Source: Candidatus Poribacteria bacterium (GTDB taxonomy: Bacteria; Poribacteria; WGA-4E; PCPOR2b). From it: DNA of 64,000 nt. Below, one piece after another: positions 13,313 to 53,476 of the stretch. The notes beneath the pieces are model-generated. The model saw nothing but the letters and a program-made list of their open reading frames with translations, was not told the origin of the DNA and searched no databases. The stretch spans positions 3,108,770-3,172,769 of the forward strand of contig CBDCUX010000005.1 of assembly GCA_965222805.1 (NCBI GenBank). Reading direction: 5' to 3'. The position numbers and the translations under genes are program-made. Position 1 is the first letter of the stretch. Each line of letters opens with the position of its first letter.

Positions 13313-13603
13313 TCTAAGCCCGGCAAGGAGTCGCTTGAATTAAAAAACCCTTGAAATCTGGTGAGGGTTGTGAGAAAATCATTGGTATCTAAGGCACGAA
13401 TTTAGAACCTGTTTTAAAAAGCAAGGAATGATCCCACGGTGCTATGGATTTGTCAATCCACAGCGCGCCACATCGCAAGGTAGGTGTTGGGGTTCCCAAC
13501 CCATCGGGCTTGGAAACCAAGCCCCTACGATTGACCTGACACGGTTTGCTGAATATGGTGATAATATGCCGTTGAATAGTGGACGCCCTTCTGGGTTGTG
13601 GAA

Positions 13604-13635
13604 GAAACCGAGTTTTGAAGAAAAAACTCGGTTTC
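13604..13635. other. Perfect 13-bp stem / 6-nt loop hairpin (gaaaccgagtttt-gaagaa-aaaactcggtttc) in intergenic region
   Basis: Seen directly. There is no U-tract after it on either strand, so it is not a canonical intrinsic terminator. Confidence 0.4.
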
Positions 13636-13729
13636 AGGGCAAATCACTTTATCCAAAATGACTTTTCAAACAGGCTCTTAGGGTTGTTTTACTAACAACA
13701 AATACCAAATTTAGTTTGGAGGGATGTAA

Positions 13730-32992: not shown

Positions 32993-34174
32993 TCAAGCCC
33001 GTCCATGATGCGACTCAGCCGGTGCACGATACTCTACCTGCAGATGTGGGGTATTCAGACGTTGATGGTCTTGTATCCGGGAAGTCAAGCAACTCTCCAG
33101 CATCCCACTGACAACCAAGGTGCGCTCTGCTGGGTAAGGGGCAGCCCCGGTCATAATCATCTCCACAATCTTGGCAACTAAGCAGGCGGAGTAGGTCACG
33201 TTGGGTGTTGGGGTCAGGAAAAATTGCGTAGACACTGGATCTGGTACGCCCTTCAGGCGCGCGGCGAAGCAGTAGTCTCTGACTGCGCCGTTGAGCATCA
33301 GTAGTGTGGTTTGGAGTCCATCGTTGCGTTCGATAAAATAGGCTGCTGGATTTTCGACCAGTTTCTGGAGTTCGCCGGTGCCGAGCAGATCCTGAGTCCG
33401 TCCATCTTCCTCGGTCAGTCCACACGGGCTGTCGCACCGAGAGAGTGCTGACTCCAAAAGTTCCTTTGACCAACGTCCAGCCTCGCCTGCCTCCCACACC
33501 GCATCGCCTTCGATTAATTGCACCACCTTGACTCCGGTCTCACCACCTTTGCGGCGTTCGACCATGCACTGCATGGCTTCTAGGGCGTGATAATCCATCG
33601 GGTCAGAACCACCGACACCTATCATCAAGGCACTCTCAATCTCGCAATCAAGCGGCAACTCGACATCTGGCAGGCGCCAAGTTACTGGTAGGGACGAGCC
33701 GGCGAGGATTGGGAATCCCAAGCGATGACCGTCGTCCACCATCTCCTGTGCTTTCTCGAAATTGTAGGAGAGATGTTTGTCATTATATATTGGAACAGCA
33801 CGTCCGTCCTCCTCGAAAACCTTGACACACTCCTTGAAAAATTCGTAGCGTGGATAGAGAACCTGACCTTTCTCATTTCTTGGGTAATCACCATGCTCAC
33901 CTATGAGCAACACAGCATCGACTGCGAGCTTGTCGCCACCACAGCGAAGTGCTTCAGAAATCGTTGGGTAAACGGAAAAACTGAACTCGCGGGCGCGGTC
34001 AGTGGATTGGTCTCCTTCGGGCTTCTGATCTATATAAAGAGAAACGACCTGGGTATCGGGACGATGCCAGCGACCTTCATAAGGATAGCCGACGATGAAG
34101 CGGTCAGCAAAGTGTTGGGCATGTGACAGGTAACGATAGATGGTGGCAATCACGGCGATGCGTTTCGGTGCCAT
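32993..34174 (-). CDS. Conserved hypothetical protein, tandem paralog A (393 aa)
   Basis: Aligns along its full length with the upstream paralog (KIAAIVTEYRKYSHGQHIVDRF vs RIAVIATIYRYLSHAQHFADRF; VLLIGEHGxYP; QCMVERRxGGExGVK). AAGGAG RBS. Confidence 0.6.
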   Translation of the reverse strand: MAPKRIAVIATIYRYLSHAQHFADRFIVGYPYEGRWHRPDTQVVSLYIDQKPEGDQSTDRAREFSFSVYPTISEALRCGGDKLAVDAVLLIGEHGDYPRNEKGQVLYPRYEFFKECVKVFEEDGRAVPIYNDKHLSYNFEKAQEMVDDGHRLGFPILAGSSLPVTWRLPDVELPLDCEIESALMIGVGGSDPMDYHALEAMQCMVERRKGGETGVKVVQLIEGDAVWEAGEAGRWSKELLESALSRCDSPCGLTEEDGRTQDLLGTGELQKLVENPAAYFIERNDGLQTTLLMLNGAVRDYCFAARLKGVPDPVSTQFFLTPTPNVTYSACLVAKIVEMIMTGAAPYPAERTLVVSGMLESCLTSRIQDHQRLNTPHLQVEYRAPAESHHGRA

Positions 34175-34195
34175 TTACGTGTTTCTCCTTTGAAA

Positions 34196-35389
34196 TCAGG
34201 TTCTCCAGAAAGTCGATTCTTTCGTCGGTTGATAAGAGATATTTAGGTGTGGCGTCTCCTGCCGCGTCTGATCTTGAAAGAGGCTATCAACCCCGGCAGC
34301 AACCAACCCTGTAGTGAGCAGCGTGCGCTCGACCGGATAGGTCGCTGTCCCGCTCAGAAACATCTTTTCAACATTGTTGACCTGCGGCGAGAAAAAGTTG
34401 GCAAGGGTTGTGCGGACTGGAGGCATCGGCAGGTACATCTGTGTGGATAGTGGGGCATCCTGACCTTCGAGGTGAGCGGCGAAGTTGAAATCCTGTACCA
34501 GTCCGTTCATAAGAATCATGGTCGCTTTGAGACCGTCCAAATGTTCGTACTGATAGGCGATTGGGTCTTCAACCAATTGCTTCATTTCGTCCAAGGTTGG
34601 GAAGATGTTGTTGAACCCCTGCCGTGAGGGAGTGAGGGTGTGACTACGGGAGAGTGCGGCTTCAAACAGTTCACGCGACCACAGTTCCTCGTGATGCGCC
34701 TCCCAGAATTTGTCACCGCGGTAGGCTTGCAGCCACTTGACACCTTTTTCGCCGCCTTCGCGACGTTCTACCATGCACTGGATGGTCTCTAAGGCGTGGA
34801 AGTCGTAGCTGTCGACGCCCCCGATTGCGATACATAGTGCTTCCCGAACACGGGCACCCAACGGCATATCAATGGACGGGGTGCGCCAAGTCACCGGCAG
34901 GGACGATCCGGACATGAACGCAAAGTCCATCTCTTGAGAAATATCATACATCTCCCGTGCCCAATCCCAATTCCAAGAGAGATGCTTGTCGTTGAAGATG
35001 GACGCAGTTTTGCCGGTAGTTTTGTAGACTGAGACAATCTGCTTGAATAGCTCGTAGCGTGGGTAGAGATGCTGCCCCTTCTCGTTGGTGGGATAGCTGC
35101 CGTGCTCGCCGATGAGCAGGACCCCATCAACGGCGAGATCATCTCCTCCCAAAGTCAGGGTATCAGCGACGGTCGGATAGATTTTCATGTGGGGGAAGCG
35201 TTCCGCACGGTCACTGCTCAGGTCGCCTTCAGGTCGTTGATCGACGTAGAGTGAAACCAGATCCATTGCCGGGTGGTGGTGCCGACTGTTCCAGCCGTAT
35301 CCCTCTAGGAAACGGTCAACGATGTGCTGACCATGGGAATACTTGCGGTACTCTGTAACGATTGCCGCAATTTTGGGGCGTTTGGTCAT
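34196..35389 (-). CDS. Conserved hypothetical protein, tandem paralog B (397 aa)
   Basis: See paralog A. Only 21 nt separate it from the downstream gene, so a likely operon. Confidence 0.6.
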   Translation of the reverse strand: MTKRPKIAAIVTEYRKYSHGQHIVDRFLEGYGWNSRHHHPAMDLVSLYVDQRPEGDLSSDRAERFPHMKIYPTVADTLTLGGDDLAVDGVLLIGEHGSYPTNEKGQHLYPRYELFKQIVSVYKTTGKTASIFNDKHLSWNWDWAREMYDISQEMDFAFMSGSSLPVTWRTPSIDMPLGARVREALCIAIGGVDSYDFHALETIQCMVERREGGEKGVKWLQAYRGDKFWEAHHEELWSRELFEAALSRSHTLTPSRQGFNNIFPTLDEMKQLVEDPIAYQYEHLDGLKATMILMNGLVQDFNFAAHLEGQDAPLSTQMYLPMPPVRTTLANFFSPQVNNVEKMFLSGTATYPVERTLLTTGLVAAGVDSLFQDQTRQETPHLNISYQPTKESTFWRT

Positions 35390-35485
35390 AGTGCGAATAT
35401 CCTTTTATGAAATGCCGACCTTCGTCGGGCGGATATCATCCAACGTGATTCCAAAATAACACCAGATCGGTTGTCAGGCAGCTGG

Positions 35486-35839
35486 CTAAGTATGAAAGAT
35501 AATCAATGTTCGGTCTATCTCAATGAAATCGTACGTTGCAAATGCTTCTACAATTTGCTCAATATTTTGCAAAAACAGCGGTTCTAACTCGCTATTTTTG
35601 ATGTTACCTGTTGAAACCAGAAGCAACTTGTATGGTCTCTGGGCAATCATAAATGAATTGACAAAATCAGCATCCTTGGTGATTACTATCCGCTTTTCAT
35701 CCACTGAAATCTGGTTGATAGCACCATCAGGGGTTCGATTTTCAAGTGGTAAGTCGCGTGTGTGAATGGTATCATAACCAGCTTCTTACAATCGATAAGC
35801 AAGATGCCGCGGCAGGTGGGCATCTACTAAAAACTTCAT
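35486..35839 (-). pseudogene. DUF5615 (PIN-like) toxin gene interrupted by in-frame TAA at codon 18
   Basis: Translation from the ATG at 35839 gives MKFLVDAHLPRHLAYRL*EAGYDTIHTRDLPLENRTPDGAINQISVDEKRIVITKDADF.... The TAA is at 35788..35786 (minus). The ATG overlaps the DUF433 stop (ATGA). Confidence 0.55.
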
Positions 35840-36093
35840 ATCATAGTAGCCTGCATTCGCTGAACCTGAGTCAGTCGCGCTGCAAACGCCAAAGCCGCCA
35901 AGATATCGTTATGTTCTAAGTCGTCATAGTCTGCTAAAATTTCGTCGATAGTCATTTCTGCACTCAACAACTCTAGTATCAATTCAACAGGATAGCGCAA
36001 TCCACGTATGCACGGCTTGCCATGACAGATTTCAGGGTCTATTGTTATACGGTCAGCAAACATTTCAAACGAACCTATTTTGCATGTACTCAT
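35836..36093 (-). CDS. DUF433 family antitoxin-like protein
   Basis: RITIDPEICHGKPCIRGLRYPVELILELL is the DUF433 signature. Classic pairing with DUF5615. Confidence 0.65.
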   Translation of the reverse strand: MSTCKIGSFEMFADRITIDPEICHGKPCIRGLRYPVELILELLSAEMTIDEILADYDDLEHNDILAALAFAARLTQVQRMQATMI

Positions 36094-36223
36094 CGGGATT
36101 CCTCAATTCAACTTTGATTTGAACTGTTAGTTCATCTCAACTTATGAAATAATGCTGGGATTATGATGAGGAGAGACTACACCAATCCACAAAGGAAATC
36201 AAGCGAAAGGAAAACTACCGGCA

Positions 36224-36982
36224 TCACCGATACTGCTCCAGATTCCCCTTGTATTCCAGTCCTAGCACGCTACGTGACCGATCGACGTTGCAGGTCTGAT
36301 CGGCTTCGGGGGTGCCCACAATATGGAAGATATCGAAGCCGATTGTCGTGGACTCTATTCCCAGACGACACGCTTCCGCCAGATCATGCCGACAGACGCA
36401 GCCATTCCGCACCGGTGCCGCCTCGGAGCCTAGTTTCTCTCGACGCCTGTTGATTCCCAATCGACTATCCACAATATAATCCGGACGCAGGACAATAATA
36501 CGTGACCCGTACGCGTCGCAAAACTGCCGACACATCTCCTCCTGCAAACGCTTACAAACCGCGTACTGACTTCCATCGGGTCTTCTGACATCCGCGTTGA
36601 AAAATACTCCCTTGGGGTGCACCGTCTGACATGAACCGATATGCACAACTCGCTTGATACCGCGTTGATGTGCGGATTCCAGCACATTCCACAAACCCTT
36701 CAAATTGACTAGGAACGGCTGCGGATCATCTACGCCGTATCCACCGAAATAGACCGCGAGATGAATAACCGCATCCATTCCCTTTGTGGCGTTGTGCACA
36801 GTGGTGAAATCCACAATATCCCCGTGGATTATCTCTCCGTCCTGCCATTCGTCCTCAATATCCTTCCATTGCTCCCATGCCTCCGGTCCCCGATCAAAGG
36901 CGCGTACCTGATGTTTGCCTTCCAAGTTGGCAAGCGCAGCGCGGCCTACCCAACCGGCTGCGCCGAATACCACAACCTTCAT
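36224..36982 (-). CDS. NAD(P)-dependent epimerase/dehydratase-like short SDR (paralog of 12590..13312)
   Basis: MKVVVFGAAGWVGRA. Confidence 0.7.
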   Translation of the reverse strand: MKVVVFGAAGWVGRAALANLEGKHQVRAFDRGPEAWEQWKDIEDEWQDGEIIHGDIVDFTTVHNATKGMDAVIHLAVYFGGYGVDDPQPFLVNLKGLWNVLESAHQRGIKRVVHIGSCQTVHPKGVFFNADVRRPDGSQYAVCKRLQEEMCRQFCDAYGSRIIVLRPDYIVDSRLGINRRREKLGSEAAPVRNGCVCRHDLAEACRLGIESTTIGFDIFHIVGTPEADQTCNVDRSRSVLGLEYKGNLEQYR

Positions 36983-37004
36983 TCGCCGTATTCCTTTCGT
37001 AATC

Positions 37005-37811
37005 CTATCGGACTATTCTTGATTTCAGTTGGCCCCAAGTGGTTGCCAATTTGCCCTGCGCCTCCACAGCGAAAGGATTCTTTTCAGGTTCAGTGACAAA
37101 CACGTTGTCCACCTCGATTATAGACTCTTGCGTTCCAAAACCGATTCGTCCCTCGCCCTGTATGTTGAAGTCCTTAACGTCAACGAGGACTGGACCGTAA
37201 TTACCCGAAACTGCTGCTGCACCGTTATCTGTAAGGAAAAAACGGTAGCCTTTCTGGTGATTTTCGATTTTAATCCAGTAGTCTACACCTCTATCAAGTT
37301 TCGTTTTCGTCTCAGTTTTTTCAAATTCTTTCACAATATGCCGTATATGCCGAACCACAACGGATCTTTTTCCCTCCTTGTTCAGTTCCCAATAAATGAC
37401 ATGACGACGTAAACTTTCTTGCATCCGAGGCGGCAAAGCGTCTTTAGCAGCAAACCCCGCACCTTCATCGCTATGGAATCGCCAAATGATGAGCGGACTG
37501 GTGCCGGCTGCAAGCTTGACTGTTGAATAGAACCAGTAATCATTCCACTCTTCATTCCAATGCCCATCGGATACCAAGATAAGATTTTTACCATTTCGTT
37601 GGTTCTGTACCAATCTGCCATCTTTAATGACCCACGACCCAGAAGCCGTGTGCCATTTTCCTGTACCGTTCAACTTGTCTTTCGACTTATCAAAAGTATC
37701 TTCAAACAAGATTTTCTGTGCTCGAGCCAAACTTGGTAGGATTAGGATACTCGCCAAAATAGACATTACCACGAGAATCCATCGCTTTTGAGAATTTTGG
37801 TTACGACACAT
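37005..37811 (-). CDS. Secreted protein, DUF1080/LamG-like (3-keto-disaccharide hydrolase-like) domain
   Basis: Signal peptide (ILVVMSILASILILPSLARA). The WVIKDGRLVQ motif resembles the DUF1080 family. Confidence 0.45.
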   Translation of the reverse strand: MCRNQNSQKRWILVVMSILASILILPSLARAQKILFEDTFDKSKDKLNGTGKWHTASGSWVIKDGRLVQNQRNGKNLILVSDGHWNEEWNDYWFYSTVKLAAGTSPLIIWRFHSDEGAGFAAKDALPPRMQESLRRHVIYWELNKEGKRSVVVRHIRHIVKEFEKTETKTKLDRGVDYWIKIENHQKGYRFFLTDNGAAAVSGNYGPVLVDVKDFNIQGEGRIGFGTQESIIEVDNVFVTEPEKNPFAVEAQGKLATTWGQLKSRIVR

Positions 37812-38016
37812 GGTAAATCCTCCTTTTAATTGTACCAGTCAAACAGGCAATCATCATACAAACGCTTCAGAAATCTTCTCATGGAACTCTGTATATTAAA
37901 GTATACCCTATTATCCTTCTAGTTTCCAACATGATCTGAGCGAGATAATCACTTTTGATGAAACTTACCGATTTGGACAGTGTGTTATTTTTCAAATCGT
38001 AAGGGAGGTTCAAAAA

Positions 38017-39516
38017 ATGAAAGTGAATGTACCTCGAACATGCAGCATCGTTCTCATCTGCGTACTCGCCTTTAGCATACTCCAACATGCTGCATCGGCG
38101 GCAGATGAACGACAGACATTGCAAGCACTCAGTAAAAGTTTCGCTGTGCTCGCACAGGACGTTGGAGAAATGGTCGTTGGAATTCAAGCTGAACGGTCAG
38201 ATGAAAATAGAGATAGGGACCATCGCTTTGAAGGGTGGGAACGGTTCGGTCCGGAGAAATTCCGCCGTTGGTTTCGCCAAAACCCGGACCGAGGTGAAAG
38301 GCCGGAAGATTATTTTTTCGACCCTGACCCGTATCGGGGGCAAGAGCGGAGGCGGAATGTGATACCTGAGGATCTGCTCCTAAACGAGATTCGACATGAA
38401 ATCAATTTCGGATCTGGCATCTTACTAGATGAACAGGGGCACATTGCTACTGTTATCGAATTGGTTGGTAATAGCAAGGAGATTACTGTCACCCTTCAGG
38501 ACGGCAGACATCTTGAAGCTGAAGTGGTTGCTTCTGACAAAGGCACCGGGATTACTGTGCTCAAAGTCGATACCGGCGCGCTGCCGACAGCGAAATTCGG
38601 CGACTCGGATGACGTTGCCCTCGGTGAGTTGACCGTTGTCCTGGGATATACCGCGAATCAGGAACCTGCAATTTCTTTGGGAATGATTAGCGGCGTTGGA
38701 CGCAACCCGCATATCGCCGACTATGAAAACTGGCTCGCGCTTGACGCGAATCTGAGTCCCGGTTTGGGAGGCAGTGCCATCGTCAACGCACAAGGCGAAA
38801 TCATCGGCATGCGTGTTAGCGGCTCATCGAACAGCGCGTTTGCCATTCCGATTAACACAGTGAGACAGATTGCAGCAGAACTGATTGAACACGGAACAGT
38901 CACACGCGGCTGGCTTGGCGTTTCGATTCAGGAGATAGATTCCGGTCTAGCGAAGAAATTGGGTTTGGACAAACCGATGGGTACCCTGATCAACCGTGTC
39001 TTCAATGACACACCCGCTGAAGAATCTGGCTTACAAAAAGGTGATATAATCGTCGCTATTAACGGTGAGACGATTAAGAATGTGAATTATCTCCGCGCTG
39101 TGATTGCCATGTATAAGCCGACGACCACCGTCTCGATTTCCATTCTGCGGGATGGTCAGACGCAAGATATCTCTGTGACGCTTAGTGAACGTTCCGCACA
39201 AATTGTTCAACTTACCAACGATTCTGAGGGGCACGTGAATCTTTGGCGAGGACTCTCCGTTCAAAACCTGACAGCGGATCTGGCTGAAAAGCTGGGGCAC
39301 ACTTCGGATGAAGGGGTATTAATTGCTAGTGTGGCACCGGGCAGCGCGGCTGCCAAAGCGAGTCTCAGCAGAGGAGATTTGATTCTTGAGGTGGAGAACC
39401 AAGCCATTCACAGCGTAGAGGAGTTCAAATCGGCGGTGGAAAAGGTGACGGATGAAACCAAAGTCTTGCTACTCGTAAAACATGAGGGGCAAGTACGGTA
39501 TGTCACCGTAAAATGA
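38017..39516 (+). CDS. HtrA/DegP-like trypsin-fold serine protease with two PDZ domains
   Basis: Signal peptide, His (GHIATV) and Asp (DKGTGITVLKV) contexts, and two PDZ segments. The catalytic Ser motif reads GLGGSA instead of GNSGG. Confidence 0.7.
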   Translation: MKVNVPRTCSIVLICVLAFSILQHAASAADERQTLQALSKSFAVLAQDVGEMVVGIQAERSDENRDRDHRFEGWERFGPEKFRRWFRQNPDRGERPEDYFFDPDPYRGQERRRNVIPEDLLLNEIRHEINFGSGILLDEQGHIATVIELVGNSKEITVTLQDGRHLEAEVVASDKGTGITVLKVDTGALPTAKFGDSDDVALGELTVVLGYTANQEPAISLGMISGVGRNPHIADYENWLALDANLSPGLGGSAIVNAQGEIIGMRVSGSSNSAFAIPINTVRQIAAELIEHGTVTRGWLGVSIQEIDSGLAKKLGLDKPMGTLINRVFNDTPAEESGLQKGDIIVAINGETIKNVNYLRAVIAMYKPTTTVSISILRDGQTQDISVTLSERSAQIVQLTNDSEGHVNLWRGLSVQNLTADLAEKLGHTSDEGVLIASVAPGSAAAKASLSRGDLILEVENQAIHSVEEFKSAVEKVTDETKVLLLVKHEGQVRYVTVK

Positions 39517-39831
39517 AAATCAGCTAAAGTTGTTCAAAACCTGAACACCACTGTTAAATATTTGCACAACACTTGACACCTTAATAAAGTTGTGTTCTAA
39601 TTATTACAGGCTTCAGCGAGATGTCAGTGTTGGCACAAAGATTGCGTATTTTGTAATCACATTTGCCTCCAAAAATCGATAGCCGGGTCAGTTTTGGGAA
39701 TTGTGGTTTCCCTGAGTATTTTTGATTCGTTTCGAGGTCTGACTGGCACTCGCCTCGCTTATCAACTGGAATGCTTCCGTTGAAACTACATTCCCATCAA
39801 ACGACTCGGCTTTTTTATTAATTTCCCGCTT

Positions 39832-40731
39832 ATGAATGTATTCATTCAAATCGCTCAAGGCGTTGCTGGGGCGATTCTTATATCCCTTTTCTTCATTCTC
39901 AGATCGAGTTTCGGTGAAGCACGACATACACTCAGTATCATCGGTGCTATCATTATCTTCATCGCGAGCGGCTACATCCTGCGGACACGGCTGATCCGAT
40001 GGGGTAGCCGACAGGTCTGGCTCAAATATCATCAAAGACTTGCATCGTTAGGGTTATCGCTCGTTCTCATCCACTCAGCGGCTCAACCGCTCGCTTGGCA
40101 CTCGTGGTTGGCGTTTACGCTGGCACTGCTCAACCTTGGGACCGGCGTTGGTGTTAGCCTCACTGCACAGCGCACACGACGTATCCTCCTCCGCTGCCAT
40201 CTTGCTCTCGCACCCATTTTGCTGCTGACCGTTGTGCTGCACGGCAGAGAAAAATTAGATCACGATGAATTCTTCCCTCTGACAGAAGTCCATGACGTTC
40301 CATGCGTGACATGCCATACGTCGGAGGCGTTGCTGTTTAGTATAGATCCGTACTTCCAGAGCGATTTAGATAATGAAGGGGTTGTCTCAGAGAACTTGCA
40401 GTGGGAGTTTAATCTTCACGGAACCCCCCTTTCTCGACAGACAACGATTTCAACGAAAGAGGAAGGTAACCACTGGTTGGTAATTGACCCAAAAGATGAA
40501 GAGGAATATACGGTCAAGAAAGCGGATGAGCGGTTAAATGTGCATGCGGACGGGGTGTACGAGGCTTACACCTGCCTTACCTGTCATGTTCATAACACCC
40601 CTGAAATTCAAGAGGCGCACGAGAGTCATGGTGTCAAATCCTACAATGCCTGCTTCGAATGCCATCAGACTGTGATCAATGGAACAAAATACGGAAATCG
40701 AAAGGCGAATTGGGCATATAATGTGTGGTAG
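39832..40731 (+). CDS. Membrane-anchored triheme c-type cytochrome
   Basis: Four predicted TM helices, then three CxxCH motifs (CVTCH, CLTCH, CFECH). Confidence 0.6.
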   Translation: MNVFIQIAQGVAGAILISLFFILRSSFGEARHTLSIIGAIIIFIASGYILRTRLIRWGSRQVWLKYHQRLASLGLSLVLIHSAAQPLAWHSWLAFTLALLNLGTGVGVSLTAQRTRRILLRCHLALAPILLLTVVLHGREKLDHDEFFPLTEVHDVPCVTCHTSEALLFSIDPYFQSDLDNEGVVSENLQWEFNLHGTPLSRQTTISTKEEGNHWLVIDPKDEEEYTVKKADERLNVHADGVYEAYTCLTCHVHNTPEIQEAHESHGVKSYNACFECHQTVINGTKYGNRKANWAYNVW

Positions 40732-40773
40732 GTTGCGAAACAACCGCGCTCAATTAGCGATAAGGAGTAGTGG

Positions 40774-41433
40774 ATGCCCCAAGACTTCAAACCGGTGACG
40801 GTTGGGATATCGGGTGGTTCAGCATCAGGGAAAACAACATTAACGACAGTATTAGCAGAGGAACTCAAAGAATTCTCGCCGGTGATTCTTCACCAAGATT
40901 ACTACTTCAGGGATTGGTCGGAATACCCGCCGGAGGAGCGGGAGAAGGTCATTACCGCGAACCATCCGGATGCAGTTCAGTGGGAGGCGTTGCTTGGGCA
41001 TATCCGTCAACTGATTGCACGCCAACCGATTGAAACCCCACCCAAAGGAACGCGAGCGTTTGTACGCGGCGATGCGCCCGCCACGATTCAGTCGAGCGAT
41101 CTAATCATCGTTGAAGGACATCTTATCCTGTGGGATACAGCGCTTAGAGATTTGATGGATGTCAAACTCTTCGTTGATGTTGAACCGCATGAGCGGGTGC
41201 TGCGTCGTCTGTTGCGGGATGTCGCACAACGCGGTGGCGACCTTGAGGGGGCGGTTGCTTGGTATCGCCGGGATGTTATCCCCAATTTCTCGGTCTACAC
41301 CGAACCGTGTAAGGGGTATGCCGATCTCGTTGTTCCCTTCTTGGATGAGAATCCTGTGGCCTTGCAGACCATCGTCGCAGGATTACGAGAGCGAATTGTA
41401 AATCAACGCACCGAGGTGAAGCCTAAAAGGTGA
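40774..41433 (+). CDS. udk: Uridine kinase / PRK-family nucleoside kinase
   Basis: VGISGGSASGKTTLT P-loop with a Udk-like layout. Confidence 0.75.
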   Translation: MPQDFKPVTVGISGGSASGKTTLTTVLAEELKEFSPVILHQDYYFRDWSEYPPEEREKVITANHPDAVQWEALLGHIRQLIARQPIETPPKGTRAFVRGDAPATIQSSDLIIVEGHLILWDTALRDLMDVKLFVDVEPHERVLRRLLRDVAQRGGDLEGAVAWYRRDVIPNFSVYTEPCKGYADLVVPFLDENPVALQTIVAGLRERIVNQRTEVKPKR

Positions 41434-41488
41434 AATTGAGATGTGAGGAGCAAAAGAAATGCAGACGTGTGTGACTGATTAACAGATG

Positions 41489-43624
41489 CTATTCAATCGC
41501 TCCAATTGTTGCGGCTTGCGGTGCACGGGTTGGAATTCTTTGATGCTCTCGCTTATCTTCTGGCACATAACCGGAGTAATCTGAAATTTTACCGTGCGTT
41601 AGTGCATAGATGGCAACGTTAGTCATAAAACGGTAGACGCTGGGCGAGTAGTGCACAGGACGGCTTGGCAGACTGACTGCCTCCATCGCGCACATATAGT
41701 CTCGACGAATAACCAGCACAGAAAGTTTGTCACCAATAAAAATGCCTTCAAGAAAATTCCGCGATGGAAGAGAAAGGTGCGGTGAAAAACGGGCAATGGT
41801 CCTCCCGGGTTGGTAAATATCAAAGCCAATGGGTGGTCCACCCATTTGATAGAAGTTGTGATAAATTTCATGGCTGTTGGGAATGCGTCCCACAGAATAT
41901 TCTGGCATGATGTGCCGCATATTAGCTAGAAACAGATGGGTCATTGATCGAGCGGCACCATGGAAACCGCAGTCATCAAAAATGAGGAGACCTTCTTTTT
42001 CGACCAGATATCGCCGCAACGAGACCGCTTCCGATTGAGAGAATTGACTATCCTTACGCCTAGTATCCAATTGTTTTAGAGCTGTTGATTTAGCAACAAG
42101 AGCGGGATCATGTCCAGTCATGATGAGCATCGGCGATTTCATCACATTGGCGTCAGTCAATTTCAGTGCTCCACCCTCGACGTTCATGTCTGTTCGGATT
42201 CGCGTCTTTTCATTGAGCCACTTCGTAAATGCGTTAAGCGCGGAAGCATCTGCCCACCAATCAGAGAGGTCGTGGCGAAGGCGTGTAAAACGGAAGACAC
42301 CACGAATATTGCGACCCTTACCAACCACACGGCCTCCCGGCTCGCCGTGGGGCAGGGGTGGCACTTCAAGATTACCGAGCATAACGCCATCAACCACCTC
42401 GTTCAAGGCATCCCGAACGGCTCCAACCTCCTCAACCATCGCAAGCTCCGACGACAACTTGAACACATCAACGATCCTGACCTGCACAGTCCCCCCAGAA
42501 ATCCCACGACCACTACCTCCAATCCCACGACTCATGCGCCCACCGTTTTTACCTATGCCTGTGACGACGGGTGAAGACAATGCCAGCGCATCGGGTGCAT
42601 CAGAAACGGGGGCATCTGTATGGGTTACGACCTGAGGCATAGGGGCATGGGAGTTGACCACTTTCGGCACATTGGGGTTGATAGGGGCATTAAGTTTCAA
42701 GGCTTGATTTGAGAACGCGGAGATGGTCTGCGGTTGGACAGTGGCGGTACGAACGACAGCGGCATTTGTCGCTCGCGGTTGGATTTTAACCAGTTCAACG
42801 ATGACCGTGTTTTCGATTGGTGCCTCTGGCTTTTGAGCGGGTTTGATGACGGGTTTGCGAACTTGCGGTTTGGGCGACGTCTTCGCTGGTTGCAAGATTT
42901 CAACACCCATCAAATCCTTGAATGGTTGGCTTTGCGTTACCAGATACCCTCCAATGATACCGGCAAGGCACAGATGGATTGTGAAAGAGATAAACCAAGA
43001 ACGCGAAACAGTTGACATAATCTTCAGTCCTCCCGGTATTGACGTCTCCCAGTGTTTCCAGCAAACACTAAATACGCTGAGAGAATGCTTGACCTTCTGG
43101 GCGATGCGTTGTTTGGCGCGATGCAGCCGGCTAGCGATGGCACGATGTGACAACCCGTGTTTCTCTGAGATTTCATCATAGCTGAAATGGTCAACGTAGA
43201 AATCGTAAGCGACCGCTCCATCCATAGCAGGCAGTGAATCAATCGCCTTCAAGATTGTCCGGTTCAACTCTTTTTTTATTAGGAATTGTTCTGGCGTCGC
43301 CTCAACAGAAGATAGATTTAAAATTGGATCCCCATTCCTCTGGCAAGATTTTGACATTTCCTTCTGCTGGTGAATCCATGTCACGCAGACATTCTTCACA
43401 ATTTGCGACAGCCAACCGGCGAACCGACTGGCATCGCGCAGTTTTGGGAGATTTTGATACGCTTTGATAAACACTTCTTGCGTTAGATCTTCGGCATCCT
43501 GCGGATTCTGTACGAGAAGTCGCGCCCGGGCCTAGACCACCGGCTGATATTTCTGGACTAGGGTGTCGAAAGCCCGTGGATTGTCCGTGAGCGTTTGATG
43601 AATAAGATCTCAATCCGTTGGCAT
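41489..43624 (-). pseudogene. ECF sigma factor fused to TM segment and large extracytoplasmic C-terminal domain; sigma region 2 interrupted by in-frame TGA and TAG
   Basis: From the ATG at 43624 (GGAGA RBS) the frame reads MPTD*DLIHQTLTDNPRAFDTLVQKYQPVV*ARARLLVQNPQDAEDLTQEVFIKAYQNL..., with TGA at 43612..43610 and TAG at 43534..43532. It then runs 661 codons without interruption through region 4 (HGLSHRAIASRLHRAKQRI), a TM helix and a C-terminal domain. Confidence 0.55.
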
Positions 43625-43889
43625 ACCCAATCTCCTAGGGCGCGTTGACGAATTAAGACGCTGACCTGTATGTGACAACAAAGCTGTGATTTATTTGGTA
43701 GCTCAGTCCCGGCTCAATGACAAATAAACACCGTAAAAAAATTAGAGTCTATCCTGATCCTTGGGGCAAAGGTTCAAGGATTTATTGAACGGTTGAACCA
43801 AGGAATCAAGGAACTCCACCGCCAGACAGATTTTCTCACGCATCTAGCGATAGAAGACATCTCAATAACTATTTTTGTAATTCAGGTCC

Positions 43890-43917
43890 CAGAGGCTTTA
43901 CGCAGCGAAAGCCTCTG
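43890..43917. other. 10-bp stem hairpin cagaggcttt-acgcagcg-aaagcctctg overlapping third copy of tgtcaatccac motif
   Basis: Seen directly. Located downstream of the minus-strand FGE gene. Confidence 0.4.
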
Positions 43918-44000
43918 TCAATCCACATAAGAGTCGCTGTATTCCTGAGGGTCCGAGTGGAGACTCGCAGGAAACTCTCGCCGACGTGCCATGACCCGCC

Positions 44001-44999
44001 TCATGATACGCGAGAGGTCACATCCTTCCGGAAATTCTCGACAATTTGTTCGATGGGACCTCCTGAGATGGGATTGATTCTTGGACTATTAGCATAGAAC
44101 TTCGCATCGTACGCATCAAGGCACCATTCCCAAACATTGCCCGCCATATCATACAAACCGTAACCATTGGGCGGAAAACGTCCAACGGGAGCTGTGGTTC
44201 CCCACTGATCTCTATCTGCTGTCCCCGCATAATTGGCCTCATTATGGGTAATTTTATCTCCCCACGGATAGCGCGCTCCGACCAACCCACCGCGTGCTGC
44301 ATACTCCCACTCGGCTTCGGTGGGAAGTCGTTTTCCCGCCTATTGTGCATAAGCCATCGCATCATGCCAAGAAACCCCGAAGACCGGATAGCTGGGTTTG
44401 TGGAGACCGTAACGCGGATCTCTATGCCCTGTTTTTTCCATAAATTGCTGATACATAGCGTTGGCCACCTCGGTTACATCGATATAAAACGCATCCACGA
44501 AAACAGTATGGACAGGTGCTTCGTGGGGGAAGCCCTCGTTAAGGATACGTTCTCTTTTGAAGAGATCTTCGTCAAAGAAAGCATTGCCCATCTGAAATTC
44601 TCCAGCGGGGATTAGGCGCATAGTTGCCCCATCCGTTTCCGAAACAATCTCCGTCTTAATTGCGACAGTGATGGCTTTTTGCTGCGTCGCAATGACAGAT
44701 GTGGAAGCATTATCTCGGATAGTCAAGGTGATGAGATATTCACCCTCGGTTCTGTACGTATGCTCCGCAACGAGGTTATGACTGTAGGGTGTCTGCTGCC
44801 CATCTCCCCAGTCCTATTTGACGGAAATATCGTCAGAGACCCGTTGGAATTGGCTGGCATCACCTTTGATATGTGCGTTTTCTAAAATTTCGGCATCCGA
44901 CGTAAAAACGACAAGCTGAGGTTCGATCGGGGTTTGGTCCCGAGTTAGGGTTTCTGGTTCATCTTCCCCACAACCAGATACGAACATGATTAAGCCCAT
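44001..44999 (-). pseudogene. Lipoprotein with PKD-like domain and formylglycine-generating-enzyme (FGE/SUMF1) domain, interrupted by two in-frame TAG codons
   Basis: ORFs 44814..45278, 44340..44726 and 44001..44285 share one frame. They read ...MGLIMFVSGCGED...DISVK*DWGDGQQTPYSHN...[39 protein letters not shown]..., with TAG at 44816..44814 and 44342..44340. The FGE motif [15 protein letters not shown] continues across the second TAG. The start (ATG 44999 or TTG 45002) is uncertain. Confidence 0.55.
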
Positions 45000-45863
45000 C
45001 AATGTCAGCGTGATAAGAGCTAACGTCTTAGAGGGTGTTGACGCATTAAGGGACCGCGATGTATGCGGCAACAATGTGGAGAAACGCAACGAAAGTCTCG
45101 ACGAGCTTGTCGTAGCGCGTCGCAATTTATCTAAACGATTTGATTCGGTTAATGAATTTCCCCATCCGATTTCGCCGTTTATAGGGTGCTTTGTAATAAT
45201 TGAAAACATTGACACGATTTTTCTTTGGCAGAATGACAACTTGCATCGGGTTGTTTTTAAGCTTTTTCCGGAGTTCATTGCTATCGTCTCCCTTATGTCT
45301 CACCAGGTTTCAAATCCAATGATTCAAAGACACGTTTTGAAAAACCACCTCAAAACCCTTCTCAGCGGGGATTTGCCCTAGTGTGAAAACATTGGTAGGA
45401 CCATTTTACATGATTCGATTCAATTCGTCAATGGGCTCTAATGCAATCACATTACTCACATTATTATATAGACACGAATTCCTACTGGGAGTTCTCAAGT
45501 TTTTTCGTCGAATCTGGATTAATCCTGTAATAGTCGGGGTAATGGCAGACACTATCAGGTTCGGGATAAAATCTCACCGGATGCTGAAGCTTTAGCCGGT
45601 ATCGGGTAGAATAGGCTTCAAGCGTCTACTATCGTGTGGACCGCTACAAATCTGGGTAACCTCCCTAAAGATCTCCTGAATCACATTTTCTTTTGATGGA
45701 CTCTACCCTCTCCTCTGTGTTAAAATACGAAATGCCATCTTTCAATCCAATCTTTAAACTGGAGCAGTGAGTAGGTGGGCAGTGAGTTCACAGGTCTACG
45801 GGGATTGAACCCCAGATTGTGTTTGACGCATTACTTACTACATTTCCGTCAGAGAGGAAAGCG

Positions 45864-47048
45864 ATGGATGAAAAAAGGCAATACCGACATCGAGGGTTGA
45901 CAATCTGCACACTCGGCGGGGTAGGACACGGCAAAACGACACTGACCGCAGGGATAATCAAGGTGGTTTCACGGATAGGCTCCACACAGACGGATGCGGC
46001 TGACTTTGCACCGCAGCAACCGACGCATCACTCACTAGGACAGCAGACTTACGTCAGTTATAGAGCGGTTGATTATGAAACAAGTGGTAGGCATTACACC
46101 CATATTGACGGACTGAGTCACAGGGATAATGTCAAGATGTTGATTGGTGGTTCGCCGGGGATTCGCGGAGCAATTTTGGTGGTGAGTGCAGTTGATGGCG
46201 TAACAGCGGAAGCCGAAGCCGAGATCCGGCTTGCGAGTCAAGCTTGTGTGCCCGCGGTTGTCACCTTCCTAAATAAGGCAGAAAAGGTCAAAGATCCGGA
46301 ATTAATTGAGATTTGCGAGATGGAGATTCGTGAGATACTCACAGATTGCGGCTATGCGGAAGACCAATCGCCGGTCATCATTGGCGACGCGGCGAAGGCA
46401 TTTAGCTATAAGGGGCAAAATCTTAATTCAGATCACTGGAAACCGATTGTCGATCTCATCTTCGCGATGAATCGTTGTATGCCGCAGCCGTTGAATCCAC
46501 TTGAACTGCCGTTGCTGATGCCGATTCGCAAGGTTATTGACAATCCCAAAGACACCTCGACGTTATACGGTCAGGTGGTGCAGGGCGGTCTCGCTGTCGG
46601 GCACCCGGTTGATGTTGTCGGCAAAGGGGACCGCATCAAGACCCGTTGTGTAGGCTTGCGACACGACGACGCGGGTGAAAGCGCAGAAGACGAGGTCCAA
46701 GTCGATGCAGAGATGGGGTGGATTACACCGGGGCAAGTTGTTTCACAACCGAAGCGCATCAGATCTCACACGGACTTTGAGGCGGCGGTTTATGTGATGA
46801 ACCAAGAGGAGTGCGGAACGCATATTCCCCTCGTTGGGAACGATAAACCGGAGATTCATCTCTGGACAATCGACGTTACGGGCCATCTCCACCTTTCGTC
46901 CGAGGTTGCGATTGTCAATCCGGGTGAACACGCGACCGTGCGAATTTCCCTTGATGTACCGATGGCAATAGAAATCGGCACGCGGTTCGAGATTAAGAAG
47001 ATGGAGGTGAAGATTGGAATGGGGGTTGTAACAGAAATTATAGAGTAG
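45864..47048 (+). CDS. Divergent EF-Tu-like GTPase with degenerate G motifs
   Basis: Collinear with EF-Tu along its full length (G1 [35 protein letters not shown] vs [37 protein letters not shown] vs FLNKCD). Domains II/III are recognisable. GAGGAAA RBS. Confidence 0.6.
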   Translation: [394 protein letters not shown]

Positions 47049-51776: not shown

Positions 51777-52445
51777 ATGATCGAAGTTGAAGCAAAATTT
51801 CAGGCAACATCGCCACAAGTGCTCGATCAGATTCGATTACAGAAACAGGTGGCGGGTTATACACTTTCGGATCAGCGGAACACTCCACAACAGGATATCT
51901 ATCTCGACACAACGACCGGACTACTAACACGAAATGGTGCTGCTTTGCGGATCAGGCAGAAGACATCTGCCTCCGGACTCATCGAGGAAAGAACACAACT
52001 CGTTACGTTCAAAGCCCAGACCGAAGAGATGTATACGTATACAGAACTCGAAGTACCTATTACTGACCAACAGGCGCAAGCACTCTTGAGCGGAAACCTT
52101 GAGAAGGTTCACGTTGAGCCTGTCGAAGCAGCTGTGAAATATTTAAACGGAGAGTCCGTAGTCCCGGTGCTGTATGTTGAAAACACCCGTGAAACGTGGG
52201 GCTTAAATGCTGATGCGGGGTGTGTCGAAGTTTGTCTTGATGAGGTACGGTATACCAACAAGGATAGAACACAATCTGTTCAGGAGTATGGCGTTGAATT
52301 AGAACTCAAAACTGGCGAACCTGTATTCTTACAACAGATTGCTGACACATTATCTCAACAGTATGATCTGGTCCCGACCTTCCAATCGAAATATGAGCGA
52401 GGCGCAACACTCCTGAATGTGTTCTGTGTCAAGGCAAAGGATTAG
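51777..52445 (+). CDS. CYTH domain protein (triphosphate tunnel metalloenzyme)
   Basis: N-terminal IEVEAKF (the ExExK signature). Confidence 0.55.
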   Translation: MIEVEAKFQATSPQVLDQIRLQKQVAGYTLSDQRNTPQQDIYLDTTTGLLTRNGAALRIRQKTSASGLIEERTQLVTFKAQTEEMYTYTELEVPITDQQAQALLSGNLEKVHVEPVEAAVKYLNGESVVPVLYVENTRETWGLNADAGCVEVCLDEVRYTNKDRTQSVQEYGVELELKTGEPVFLQQIADTLSQQYDLVPTFQSKYERGATLLNVFCVKAKD

Positions 52446-52466
52446 AAAAGGGAGGTTATCAATCGT

Positions 52467-52937
52467 ATGGCGAAAGCACGGACTGTCAAAGATATTGCGC
52501 CGGAAAAAAGCCTTGAAGAGTGCGCGCGAAAGATTATCACGACCCGACTCCATGAGATGATATCTTTCAAGGAGGGAGCAATTGATGGGACAGATATCGA
52601 GTACGTTCACGACATGCGAGTCGCCTCCCGCCGGCTACGCGCTGCGATGCGAAACTTTGCCGATTGCTTTACCCCAAAAAAAGAGTTCCGCGGGCACCTC
52701 AAACGGGTTGAGCGGATTACGAGTACACTGGGAGACGTGCGTGATTTAGATGTGTTGATTGATCGTTTTCAAAAAGACGCACAAACGGTTCCAGTAGATG
52801 CACAGATTGGCCTTCAAAACTTGATAAAACATCTGCAGAGAGAGCGGGAAGTGCGACGGGTACCAATGTTTACGATGTTTGAAGCGCTCGACCAGAATAA
52901 TTTCGAGAAGAAGTTCTTGAAATTCTTTGAGGTATAG
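52467..52937 (+). CDS. CHAD domain protein (N-terminal half-domain)
   Basis: HDMRVASRRLRAAMRNF. Confidence 0.5.
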   Translation: MAKARTVKDIAPEKSLEECARKIITTRLHEMISFKEGAIDGTDIEYVHDMRVASRRLRAAMRNFADCFTPKKEFRGHLKRVERITSTLGDVRDLDVLIDRFQKDAQTVPVDAQIGLQNLIKHLQREREVRRVPMFTMFEALDQNNFEKKFLKFFEV

Positions 52938-52939
52938 AG

Positions 52940-53476
52940 ATGGCAAAAGCGTGGAAAGTGAGGGGGATTCACCCACAACTGAGCTATGGTTGGAATGCAC
53001 AAGTTATCCTCGCCGTAAAGATTCAGGAGGTATACTCGCGGGCGGAATCTATTCGCAACCCGGATAAGGTCAAGGAACTCCACAACCTGCGAATCTCAAT
53101 AAAGCGGCTCCGTTACTCGATGGAGTTTTTCGGCATCAACTACGGTGAGAAACTCCAAGATTTCTTGAAGGTATTGGCAGATTTGCAGGAACAGTTGGGC
53201 GATATCCACGATTGCGATGTCGTTGAAACCGTTCTGACGGATTATCTGCAATCACTTCCGGACCGAGGGGACACAGGGACCGATGCAATTGGGATTAATA
53301 CCCTTCTGCTCCGCTACCGTGAGATGCGAGTGACAAAGTATAAGGCGTTTTTGCGGCGGTGGGATGCGCTTGAGGCGGCAGATTTCAAGATCCAACTCCT
53401 TAAAACCGTTACAGGTGAATCGGGAGAACCGTCGGTCCAAATGGGTGCGGCAGACAACTCACCCACTCAATCGTAG
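52940..53476 (+). CDS. CHAD domain protein (second half-domain)
   Basis: HNLRISIKRLRYSMEFF. Starts 2 nt after the previous stop in another frame and has its own GAGG RBS. Confidence 0.5.
   Translation: MAKAWKVRGIHPQLSYGWNAQVILAVKIQEVYSRAESIRNPDKVKELHNLRISIKRLRYSMEFFGINYGEKLQDFLKVLADLQEQLGDIHDCDVVETVLTDYLQSLPDRGDTGTDAIGINTLLLRYREMRVTKYKAFLRRWDALEAADFKIQLLKTVTGESGEPSVQMGAADNSPTQS

What the first reader, a model, noticed from the sequence alone, without database searches (positions are those of the whole stretch)
35786..44816. Five in-frame stop codons (TAA, TGA, 3xTAG) confined to three minus-strand genes within 9 kb, all with conserved domains continuing across the stops
Every other gene in the window is uninterrupted. 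These three (DUF5615 toxin, ECF-sigma fusion, PKD-FGE lipoprotein) each keep the reading frame and conserved motifs straight through single stop codons, with no frameshifts or indels. The pattern is unusual for random decay. It could reflect recent targeted pseudogenisation, sequencing or assembly error, programmed readthrough, or deliberate disruption of a toxin, a regulator and a sulfatase-maturation enzyme.
Basis: seen in the sequence. Interest (0 to 1): 0.6.

Follow-up and report, generated by a model that had tools for sequence, protein, structure and literature searches.

The report
Ordinary nonsense-mutation pseudogenes, sponge symbiont
Three dispensable genes in a sponge-symbiont (Candidatus Poribacteria) genome carry six real premature stop codons made by ordinary single-base mutations, several shared with sister strains, so this is natural gene decay and not sequencing error, recoding or a targeted process.

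Summary
Pfam domains run across every stop.

The window comes from a Candidatus Poribacteria genome. Sister strains about 98% identical and colinear over 21 kb carry sense codons at all six sites: TGG, TGG, CGA, CGA, TAT and CAA. Each stop is therefore one base change, and five of the six are GC>AT transitions.

The stops are not assembly errors:
- Two Logan assemblies of separate sequencing runs reproduce the 2 kb that holds five of them (100% and 99.95% identity).
- Three of the stop alleles also occur in other strains from other samples: toxin TAA in L084, sigma TGA in L085, FGE TAG 44340 in L082.

Substitution density and spectrum in the broken genes match the flanks, so there is no hypermutation. 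Indels are about 1% of substitutions in this lineage, so the absence of frameshifts is expected. No SECIS or other Rfam element is present, and the stops are not conserved among orthologues.

The affected genes are accessory and also break or vanish in relatives. The excess of nonsense changes is modest (p about 0.01-0.04, post hoc).

Verdict: real, ordinary, partly old pseudogenisation. Interest is low.

The parts
35486..35839 (-). DUF5615 / Mut7-C / PIN-like toxin gene of a DUF433-DUF5615 pair, 117 codons, inactivated at codon 18
   Evidence: Pfam DUF5615 3.5e-24 across the stop. The allele is intact in L085, L083 and L007. The start overlaps the antitoxin stop (ATGA) at 35836-35839.
35786..35788 (-). 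Premature TAA (from CAA Gln, C>T)
   Evidence: The same TAA lies on a shared haplotype in L084, from another sample.
35836..36093 (-). DUF433 antitoxin-like partner gene, intact
   Evidence: Pfam DUF433 5.2e-26. The exact protein is on record in the public collection; its 90% cluster has 43 members.
41489..43624 (-). ECF sigma-DUF4159 fusion reading frame (711 codons). The sigma domain is dead. The DUF4159 part is probably still expressed from an internal start.
   Evidence: Pfam and NCBIfam hits. The fusion is intact in L084 at 715 aa. It is a mosaic of a g1-type sigma domain and a g2-type DUF4159.
43610..43612 (-). Premature TGA at sigma codon 5 (from CGA Arg, C>T)
   Evidence: The allele is shared with L085, whose sigma domain differs from the window's only at 43532.
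43532..43534 (-). Premature TAG at sigma codon 31 (from TAT Tyr, T>G). Private to the window lineage.
   Evidence: Reproduced in Logan contigs L080 and L081.
41489..43018 (-). DUF4159 membrane-protein part (509 codons) with its own GGGAGG SD 10 nt upstream of ATG 43016-43018
   Evidence: SD and ATG seen. This stretch is called as a separate 509-aa gene in L079 and L082. Against L079 gene 2 it shows 21 synonymous and 12 missense changes, which indicates purifying selection.
43869..45278 (-). PKD + FGE-fold (SUMF1/EgtB/PvdO-family) lipoprotein pseudogene, 469 codons, three premature stops
   Evidence: Pfam FGE-sulfatase 3.5e-59 and PKD. Intact alleles are P0001, P0122 and P0133 at 97-98% identity. 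The catalytic Cys pair of true FGE is absent.
44814..44816 (-). Premature TAG (from TGG Trp, G>A). Private to the window lineage.
   Evidence: Reproduced in L080 and L081. The resulting 154-aa fragment P0135 is on record from Logan runs.
44340..44342 (-). Premature TAG (from TGG Trp, G>A). Oldest FGE lesion.
   Evidence: The same TAG is in L082, which lacks the window's other private changes and has its own extra stop W403*.
44001..44003 (-). Premature TGA (from CGA Arg in the RGGSW motif, C>T).
   Evidence: Reproduced in L080 and L081.

Best explanation
These are genuine pseudogene alleles produced by ordinary spontaneous point mutations in three accessory genes of a Candidatus Poribacteria sponge symbiont.

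Each premature stop is one base substitution of a 'pre-stop' sense codon: TGG>TAG twice, CGA>TGA twice, CAA>TAA and TAT>TAG. Five of the six are GC>AT transitions, the commonest change in this lineage.

The lesions differ in age. The toxin TAA, the sigma TGA and the FGE TAG at 44340 are alleles shared with other strains. The stops at 44814, 44001 and 43532 were added later on the window's own lineage, after the genes were already dead.

The stops cluster because this stretch holds dispensable, fast-turnover genes. These are a toxin of a toxin-antitoxin pair, one member of a tandem ECF-sigma/DUF4159 paralogue array, and one of many PKD-FGE-fold lipoprotein paralogues.

No frameshifts are seen because small indels are about a hundred times rarer than substitutions in this lineage.

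The DUF4159 half of the sigma fusion probably remains functional, translated from an internal ribosome-binding site. That last step is inferred, not shown.
For: The stops are real:
- Logan contigs from two different runs match the window across 43479-45516 at 100% (L081) and 99.95% (L080). Their only mismatch, at 43472, lies outside all stop codons.
- Fragment proteins P0135 and P0124, which end at the stops, are on record from Logan runs.

The ancestral state was a sense codon:
- L079, L083, L084 and L085 are 97.5-98.3% identical and colinear with the window, and have sense codons at the sites.

Three stop alleles are shared with other strains:
- Toxin TAA in L084.
- Sigma TGA in L085.
- FGE TAG 44340 in L082, which has its own further stop W403*.
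- L083 carries a frameshift in the same FGE gene instead.

There is no hypermutation:
- FGE has 9 of the 118 window-specific substitutions, about 6.4 per kb against 5.5 per kb on average.
- The spectrum and trinucleotide contexts resemble the flanks.

Constraint is relaxed:
- Window-specific FGE changes are 1 synonymous, 5 missense and 3 nonsense.
- Missense changes equal or exceed synonymous ones even among the intact alleles.

Indels are rare:
- Only 2-4 indel events against 344 substitutions versus L085. P(all six hits nonsense) is then about 0.3.

The genes are dispensable in relatives:
- The toxin is absent or a remnant in L002, L010 and L011.
- The sigma domain of this paralogue is missing or a relic in most species.
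- FGE-fold paralogues are very numerous in Poribacteria.
Against: Nonsense changes are somewhat over-represented among the private changes.
- In FGE, 3 of 9 changes are nonsense against an expected 3.9% (P = 0.004).
- After discounting the first, triggering stop, P is about 0.04.
- Window and L082 combined give 3 of 13 post-inactivation changes (P = 0.013, or 0.04 with context-adjusted rates).

All six stops are followed by G (P = 0.0013, post hoc). The seventh natural stop, in L082, is followed by C.

The whole genome could not be examined, so a suppressor tRNA or an unusual genome-wide pseudogene load cannot be excluded directly. No expression data are available.
Confidence: 0.85

Rival explanations
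1. Adaptive, stepwise silencing. Loss of these genes is favoured by selection, and the additional stops were selected rather than neutral. For example, an earlier stop could remove a harmful truncated lipoprotein, or TAG at sigma codon 31 could kill a product reinitiated at GTG codon 29 after the codon-5 TGA.
For: The FGE gene has been inactivated repeatedly and independently: in the window, in L082 with a second stop, and in L083 by frameshift. There is a modest excess of nonsense among private changes. L085's gene is called from the GTG at codon 29, downstream of the shared TGA. Loss of the toxin in a TA pair is commonly tolerated or favoured (established knowledge).
Against: The excess is marginal once the triggering stop and the post hoc choice of this window are taken into account. 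R399*, downstream of W286*, cannot be selected for silencing. dN/dS near 1 among the intact alleles fits relaxed rather than positive selection. No functional data exist.
Confidence: 0.08
2. Programmed readthrough, recoding or suppression. The genes stay functional because the stops are decoded as amino acids.
For: The reading frames and motifs are preserved across the stops with no frameshifts. A divergent EF-Tu paralogue lies next door at 45819-47048.
Against: - Sister strains and orthologues encode ordinary W, R, Y and Q at the sites, not Cys or Lys.
- The stops are not conserved.
- All three stop codons are involved, yet no other gene in the 21 kb compared is affected.
- There is no SECIS or other Rfam hit and no tRNA in the window.
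- Every stop is followed by G, which is not a leaky context in model bacteria (own knowledge).
- The EF-Tu paralogue is present in the same position in strains without stops.
- Window-lineage FGE changes are mostly missense.
Confidence: 0.03
3. Localised enzymatic hypermutation, for example by a DNA cytosine deaminase toxin or through 5mC deamination, aimed at this locus.
For: Five of the six stops are C>T or G>A changes. CpG contexts are mildly enriched among window-specific GC>AT changes, 25 observed against 15.8 expected.
Against: Substitution density in the broken genes equals that of the flanks. The GC>AT to AT>GC ratio is similar to the flanks. The changes fall on both strands and in mixed contexts (CCA, ACG, TCG, GCA). 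The lesions arose at different times on different haplotypes.
Confidence: 0.02
4. Sequencing, assembly or consensus artefact.
For: None found. The general caution is that this is a metagenome-assembled genome.
Against: The 2-kb sequence carrying five of the stops is reproduced in two Logan assemblies of different runs. Three of the stop alleles occur in contigs from other ENA assemblies: ERZ25072076, ERZ25072670 and ERZ25067264. Long-read errors are typically indels, not substitutions (own knowledge).
Confidence: 0.02

Closest known systems
Nonsense-mutation pseudogenes in host-associated bacteria (classic examples: Mycobacterium leprae, Salmonella Typhi, Sodalis; from own knowledge)
   Same: Single-base stops lie in otherwise well-preserved genes. 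Intact orthologues exist in close relatives. Accessory genes are hit preferentially. Inactive alleles segregate among strains.
   Different: Here there is no evidence of genome-wide reduction. The genome is about 6.8 Mb and the rest of the window is intact. The lesions concentrate in one gene-flux locus.
Toxin-antitoxin decay (toxin inactivated, antitoxin retained)
   Same: The DUF433 partner is intact and overlaps the toxin start by ATGA. The DUF5615/PIN-like toxin is truncated at codon 18. Relatives have deleted the toxin or keep only a 25-28-aa remnant.
   Different: The DUF433/DUF5615 pair has not been characterised experimentally as far as the searched literature shows. Toxicity is assumed from the PIN/Mut7-C fold.
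ECF sigma factors with C-terminal extensions or fusions
   Same: Regions 2 and 4 are followed by a transmembrane segment and a large C-terminal domain in one reading frame. The fusion is intact in sister strain L084 at 715 aa.
   Different: The partner domain is DUF4159, of unknown function. In the window the sigma part carries two stops, while the DUF4159 part has its own SD and start and is conserved.
Formylglycine-generating enzyme / SUMF1 family, including GldK/PorK, EgtB and PvdO
   Same: The FGE-sulfatase fold gives E = 3.5e-59. The best solved matches are bacterial and human FGE.
   Different: The Cu-binding cysteine pair (LCHDSYC in S. coelicolor FGE) aligns to HVGESFL, so the catalytic residues are absent. 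Scores fall below every NCBIfam equivalog cut-off. The protein has a PKD domain and a lipobox. It is not a sulfatase maturase.

Membership tests
Pseudogene by nonsense substitution | Close relatives carry an intact gene with a sense codon at each stop position | tested here: met
   TGG, TGG, CGA, CGA, TAT and CAA in L079 and L083-L085 at about 98% DNA identity
Pseudogene by nonsense substitution | The stop is a real allele and not an assembly error | tested here: met
   Two Logan run assemblies are identical across five of the stops. Three alleles are shared with other samples.
Pseudogene by nonsense substitution | Relaxed constraint on the broken gene | tested here: inconclusive
   FGE shows 1 synonymous and 5 missense changes, against 47 and 33 in the neighbours (Fisher p = 0.08). 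The direction is as expected but the counts are small.
Programmed stop-codon recoding (Sec, Pyl, readthrough) | The stop codon is conserved among orthologues, or aligns with Cys or Lys | tested here: not met
   Orthologues have W, R, Y and Q. The stops are absent from sister strains.
Programmed stop-codon recoding (Sec, Pyl, readthrough) | A recoding RNA element (SECIS, PYLIS or similar) or a dedicated tRNA is nearby | tested here: not met
   No Rfam hit at E <= 1 in 34000-47000. No tRNA in the window. The whole genome could not be tested.
True formylglycine-generating enzyme (sulfatase maturase) | FGE-sulfatase fold | tested here: met
   PF03781 at 3.5e-59. PDB FGE hits at 1e-36 to 1e-39.
True formylglycine-generating enzyme (sulfatase maturase) | Catalytic, copper-binding cysteine pair | tested here: not met
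   LCHDSYC of 6muj/2q17 aligns to HVGESFL. This holds in all orthologues aligned.
Type II toxin-antitoxin pair (DUF433 + DUF5615/PIN-like) | Two small adjacent, overlapping genes, one of them with a PIN/Mut7-C nuclease fold | tested here: met
   85-aa DUF433 and 117-codon DUF5615/Mut7-C/PIN_10, with an ATGA overlap
Type II toxin-antitoxin pair (DUF433 + DUF5615/PIN-like) | Demonstrated toxicity and neutralisation | not testable with these tools
   No literature found
ECF sigma factor | Sigma-70 regions 2 and 4 in an uninterrupted ORF | tested here: not met
   The domains are present, but there are stops at codons 5 and 31.
Diversity-generating retroelement target (FGE/CLec-fold variable protein) | A template repeat matching the 3' end of the gene | tested here: not met
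   Self-BLAST of 43400-45900 against the window finds only itself.

The most novel reading that the evidence does not exclude
The stops may not all be neutral debris. Two observations leave this open: a roughly 3-5-fold excess of nonsense among post-inactivation changes, and a G after every stop, which is a strong termination context. Together they could mean that this symbiont silences costly accessory genes stepwise, by selection for additional, efficient premature stops, or that an unrecognised mutational bias towards pre-stop codons operates.
Probability: 0.05. Interest if true: 0.4.

Novelty: already known. Interest (0 to 1): 0.12.

Why it matters
It matters little beyond annotation. The three genes should be flagged as pseudogenes in this Poribacteria genome, and the FGE-like gene should not be counted as a sulfatase maturase.

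The locus is a small, clean example of strain-level gene decay in a sponge symbiont. Lesions of different ages can be ordered by comparing co-occurring strains, which could serve population-genomic studies of accessory-gene turnover.

Tried and rejected
- Exact look-ups of intact window proteins (219, 428, 499 and 252 aa) with the look-up of encoding contigs returned nothing on record. The window's own contig could therefore not be fetched. An exact-sequence look-up showed that it is a 6.76-Mb record.
- An exact scan of JGI metagenomes for the 38-mer around 44341, matching either allele, gave 0 hits.
- Rfam at E <= 1 gave no hits.
- ARAGORN found no tRNA.
- A search for a DGR template repeat found none.
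- Deaminase-type sequence contexts were checked. No dominant context appeared, only a mild CpG enrichment.
- The idea of hypermutation in the broken genes was rejected. The apparent 94% identity to L079 came from a paralogous stretch, and the orthologous part differs by only about 1.4%.
- The CYTH/CHAD and SGL/redoxin same-frame ORF pairs were examined as possible further in-frame stops. They were rejected as separate cistrons or genes.
- Literature searches on Poribacteria pseudogenes, DUF4159 and DUF433/DUF5615 gave nothing relevant.
Full report
**Observation**

Translating the minus strand confirms the five reported stops:
- TAA 35786-35788
- TGA 43610-43612
- TAG 43532-43534
- TAG 44814-44816
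- TAG 44340-44342

The FGE-like frame continues through the RGGSW...GFRC motif to TAG 43869-43871.

With the stops masked, Pfam domains span them:
- DUF5615/Mut7-C/PIN_10 covers residues 1-109 of the 117-codon toxin.
- Sigma70_r2, r4_2 and DUF4159 lie in the 711-codon sigma fusion.
- PKD and FGE-sulfatase (3.5e-59, residues 219-461) lie in the 469-codon lipoprotein.

**Origin and comparators**

A scan of species-representative genomes puts the window in Candidatus Poribacteria, a sponge symbiont. The locus is syntenic in many species. In those species a variable array of sigma-DUF4159 paralogues, with or without an FGE-like gene, sits between an EF-Tu-like gene and a uridine-kinase-type gene.

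A protein search found a 98%-identical intact FGE-like protein, P0001, together with its cluster members. Fetching their contigs gave five close strains from three ENA assemblies: L079, L082, L083, L084 and L085. L083, L084 and L085 are colinear with window 33.9-55.3 kb at 97.5-98.3% identity.

**Are the stops real?**

Yes. Logan assemblies of two separate runs yield about 2-kb contigs that match the window:
- L081 (ERR13602196) is 100% identical to window 43479-45516.
- L080 (ERR13605531) is 99.95% identical to window 43456-45523. Its only mismatch, at 43472, lies outside every stop codon.

All five stops in that interval are therefore reproduced.

Three stop alleles also occur in other strains:
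- The toxin TAA is in L084, on a shared haplotype.
- The sigma TGA at codon 5 is in L085. Its sigma domain differs from the window's only at 43532.
- The FGE TAG at 44340 is in L082. L082 lacks the window's other private changes and has its own second stop, W403*.

L083 has a 1-bp insertion in the same FGE gene instead. That contig has only 9x coverage, so the insertion could be an error.

**What were the codons?**

In the close strains the six sites read TGG, TGG, CGA, CGA, TAT and CAA. More distant orthologues agree. Each stop is a single substitution, and five of the six are GC>AT transitions.

**Is there a special mutational process?**

No.
- The orthologous part of FGE plus the sigma N-terminus differs from L079 by about 1.4%, no more than the flanks.
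- Of 118 window-specific substitutions in 21.4 kb, FGE holds 9, or 6.4 per kb against a mean of 5.5 per kb.
- The spectrum is transition-rich everywhere (58 GC>AT, 43 AT>GC, 17 transversions). Trinucleotide contexts show only a mild CpG enrichment.
- The changes lie on both strands and arose at different times.

**Is the pattern unusual for decay?**

The lack of frameshifts is not unusual. Against L085 there are 344 substitutions but only 2-4 indel events. With an indel:substitution ratio of about 1%, the chance that six inactivating hits are all nonsense is about 0.3.

The share of nonsense is somewhat high. Under the lineage's own spectrum, 3.9% of random changes in FGE would be nonsense. 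Observed are 3 of 9 (P = 0.004), or 2 of 8 after the triggering stop (P = 0.036). Pooling the window and L082 after the shared W286* gives 3 of 13 (P = 0.013, or 0.04 with context-adjusted rates). The window was flagged precisely because it has many stops, so I treat this as marginal.

All six stops are followed by G (P = 0.0013), but the seventh natural stop, in L082, is not. This too is post hoc.

**Why these genes?**

All three are accessory.
- The toxin is deleted or reduced to a 25-28-aa remnant in L002, L010 and L011.
- The paralogue next to the kinase lacks a sigma domain, or keeps only a stop-ridden relic of it, in most species.
- In L079 and L082 the same DUF4159 gene (g2) is a separate 509-aa gene. 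In the window and in L083-L085 a g1-type sigma domain is joined to it.
- In the window the DUF4159 part retains a GGGAGG SD 10 nt upstream of ATG 43016-43018. It shows 21 synonymous against 12 missense differences from L079 g2. I infer that it is still expressed while the sigma domain is dead.
- FGE-fold PKD lipoproteins are highly multiplied in Poribacteria. Even the intact alleles of this one show as many missense as synonymous differences, or more, which suggests weak constraint across the clade.
- The clade also lacks the canonical lipoprotein start Met found in other species.

**Annotation corrections**

The 'FGE' is not a sulfatase maturase. Aligned to S. coelicolor FGE, the catalytic LCHDSYC cysteine pair corresponds to HVGESFL, and no NCBIfam equivalog cut-off is reached. 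There is no DGR template repeat.

**Recoding tests**

- There is no tRNA in the window.
- There is no Rfam element at E <= 1.
- The stops are not conserved among orthologues.
- All three stop codon types are involved, while every other gene in the 21 kb compared is clean.
- The neighbouring divergent EF-Tu paralogue (268 bits against a cut-off of 452) is present in the same position in strains without stops. It is therefore not linked to the stops.

**Verdict**

The explanation is ordinary pseudogenisation by spontaneous point mutations in a gene-flux locus. It is partly old, with alleles shared among strains, and partly recent. Sequencing error, readthrough and targeted mutagenesis are not supported. 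Novelty: already known. Interest: low.

Noticed in passing
window 45819-47048 (+): A divergent EF-Tu paralogue. It aligns full-length to the EF-Tu models but scores 268 bits against a cut-off of 452. It is conserved next to the variable sigma/FGE locus in all Poribacteria loci examined, regardless of the stops.
   Followed up: partly
window 51777-53476 (+): A CYTH domain gene (222 aa) is followed by a CHAD domain split between two cistrons (156 aa covering profile 2-111, 178 aa covering profile 156-227). Each cistron has its own SD and ATG. The same three-part split is present in all five close strains.
   Followed up: partly
window 13401-13682; L079 9442-9729: A roughly 285-bp element is 84% identical between an intergenic site in the window and the EF-Tu-like/FGE spacer of sister strain L079. 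The window lacks it at that spacer. It may be a small mobile intergenic repeat.
   Followed up: partly
window 32993-34174 and 34196-35389 (-): Two tandem paralogous genes (393 and 397 aa, about 47% identical) have no Pfam match. They are conserved at 93-97% across Poribacteria species.
   Followed up: no
window 35785, 43531, 43609, 44000, 44339, 44813 (base after each stop, minus strand): All six premature stops are followed by G. The spectrum-weighted expectation is 0.33 per site, giving P = 0.0013 post hoc. The extra stop in L082 is followed by C.
   Followed up: yes
window 44972-45278 (-): In the window's clade the FGE-like gene lacks the canonical lipoprotein start Met that other species have (M-x-K-T-L-T-L-I...FVSGC). 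The codon is CCC at 45033-45035 and the ORF extends 78-105 codons upstream. The window also has ATG>ATT at 45195.
   Followed up: partly
L079 11574-16554; L082 13026-18030; window 41489-43624: The strains differ by an indel of about 2.9 kb. L079 and L082 have sigma-DUF4159 (g1), a degraded second kinase copy (148 + 68 aa) and DUF4159 (g2). The window and L083-L085 have a g1-type sigma joined to the g2 DUF4159. L082 additionally carries a second, intact PKD-FGE paralogue of 485 aa.
   Followed up: partly
L079 and L085 (ERZ25072670); L082 and L083 (ERZ25067264): Two distinct strains of this Poribacteria species, with different lesions at this locus, co-occur in the same metagenome assembly.
   Followed up: no
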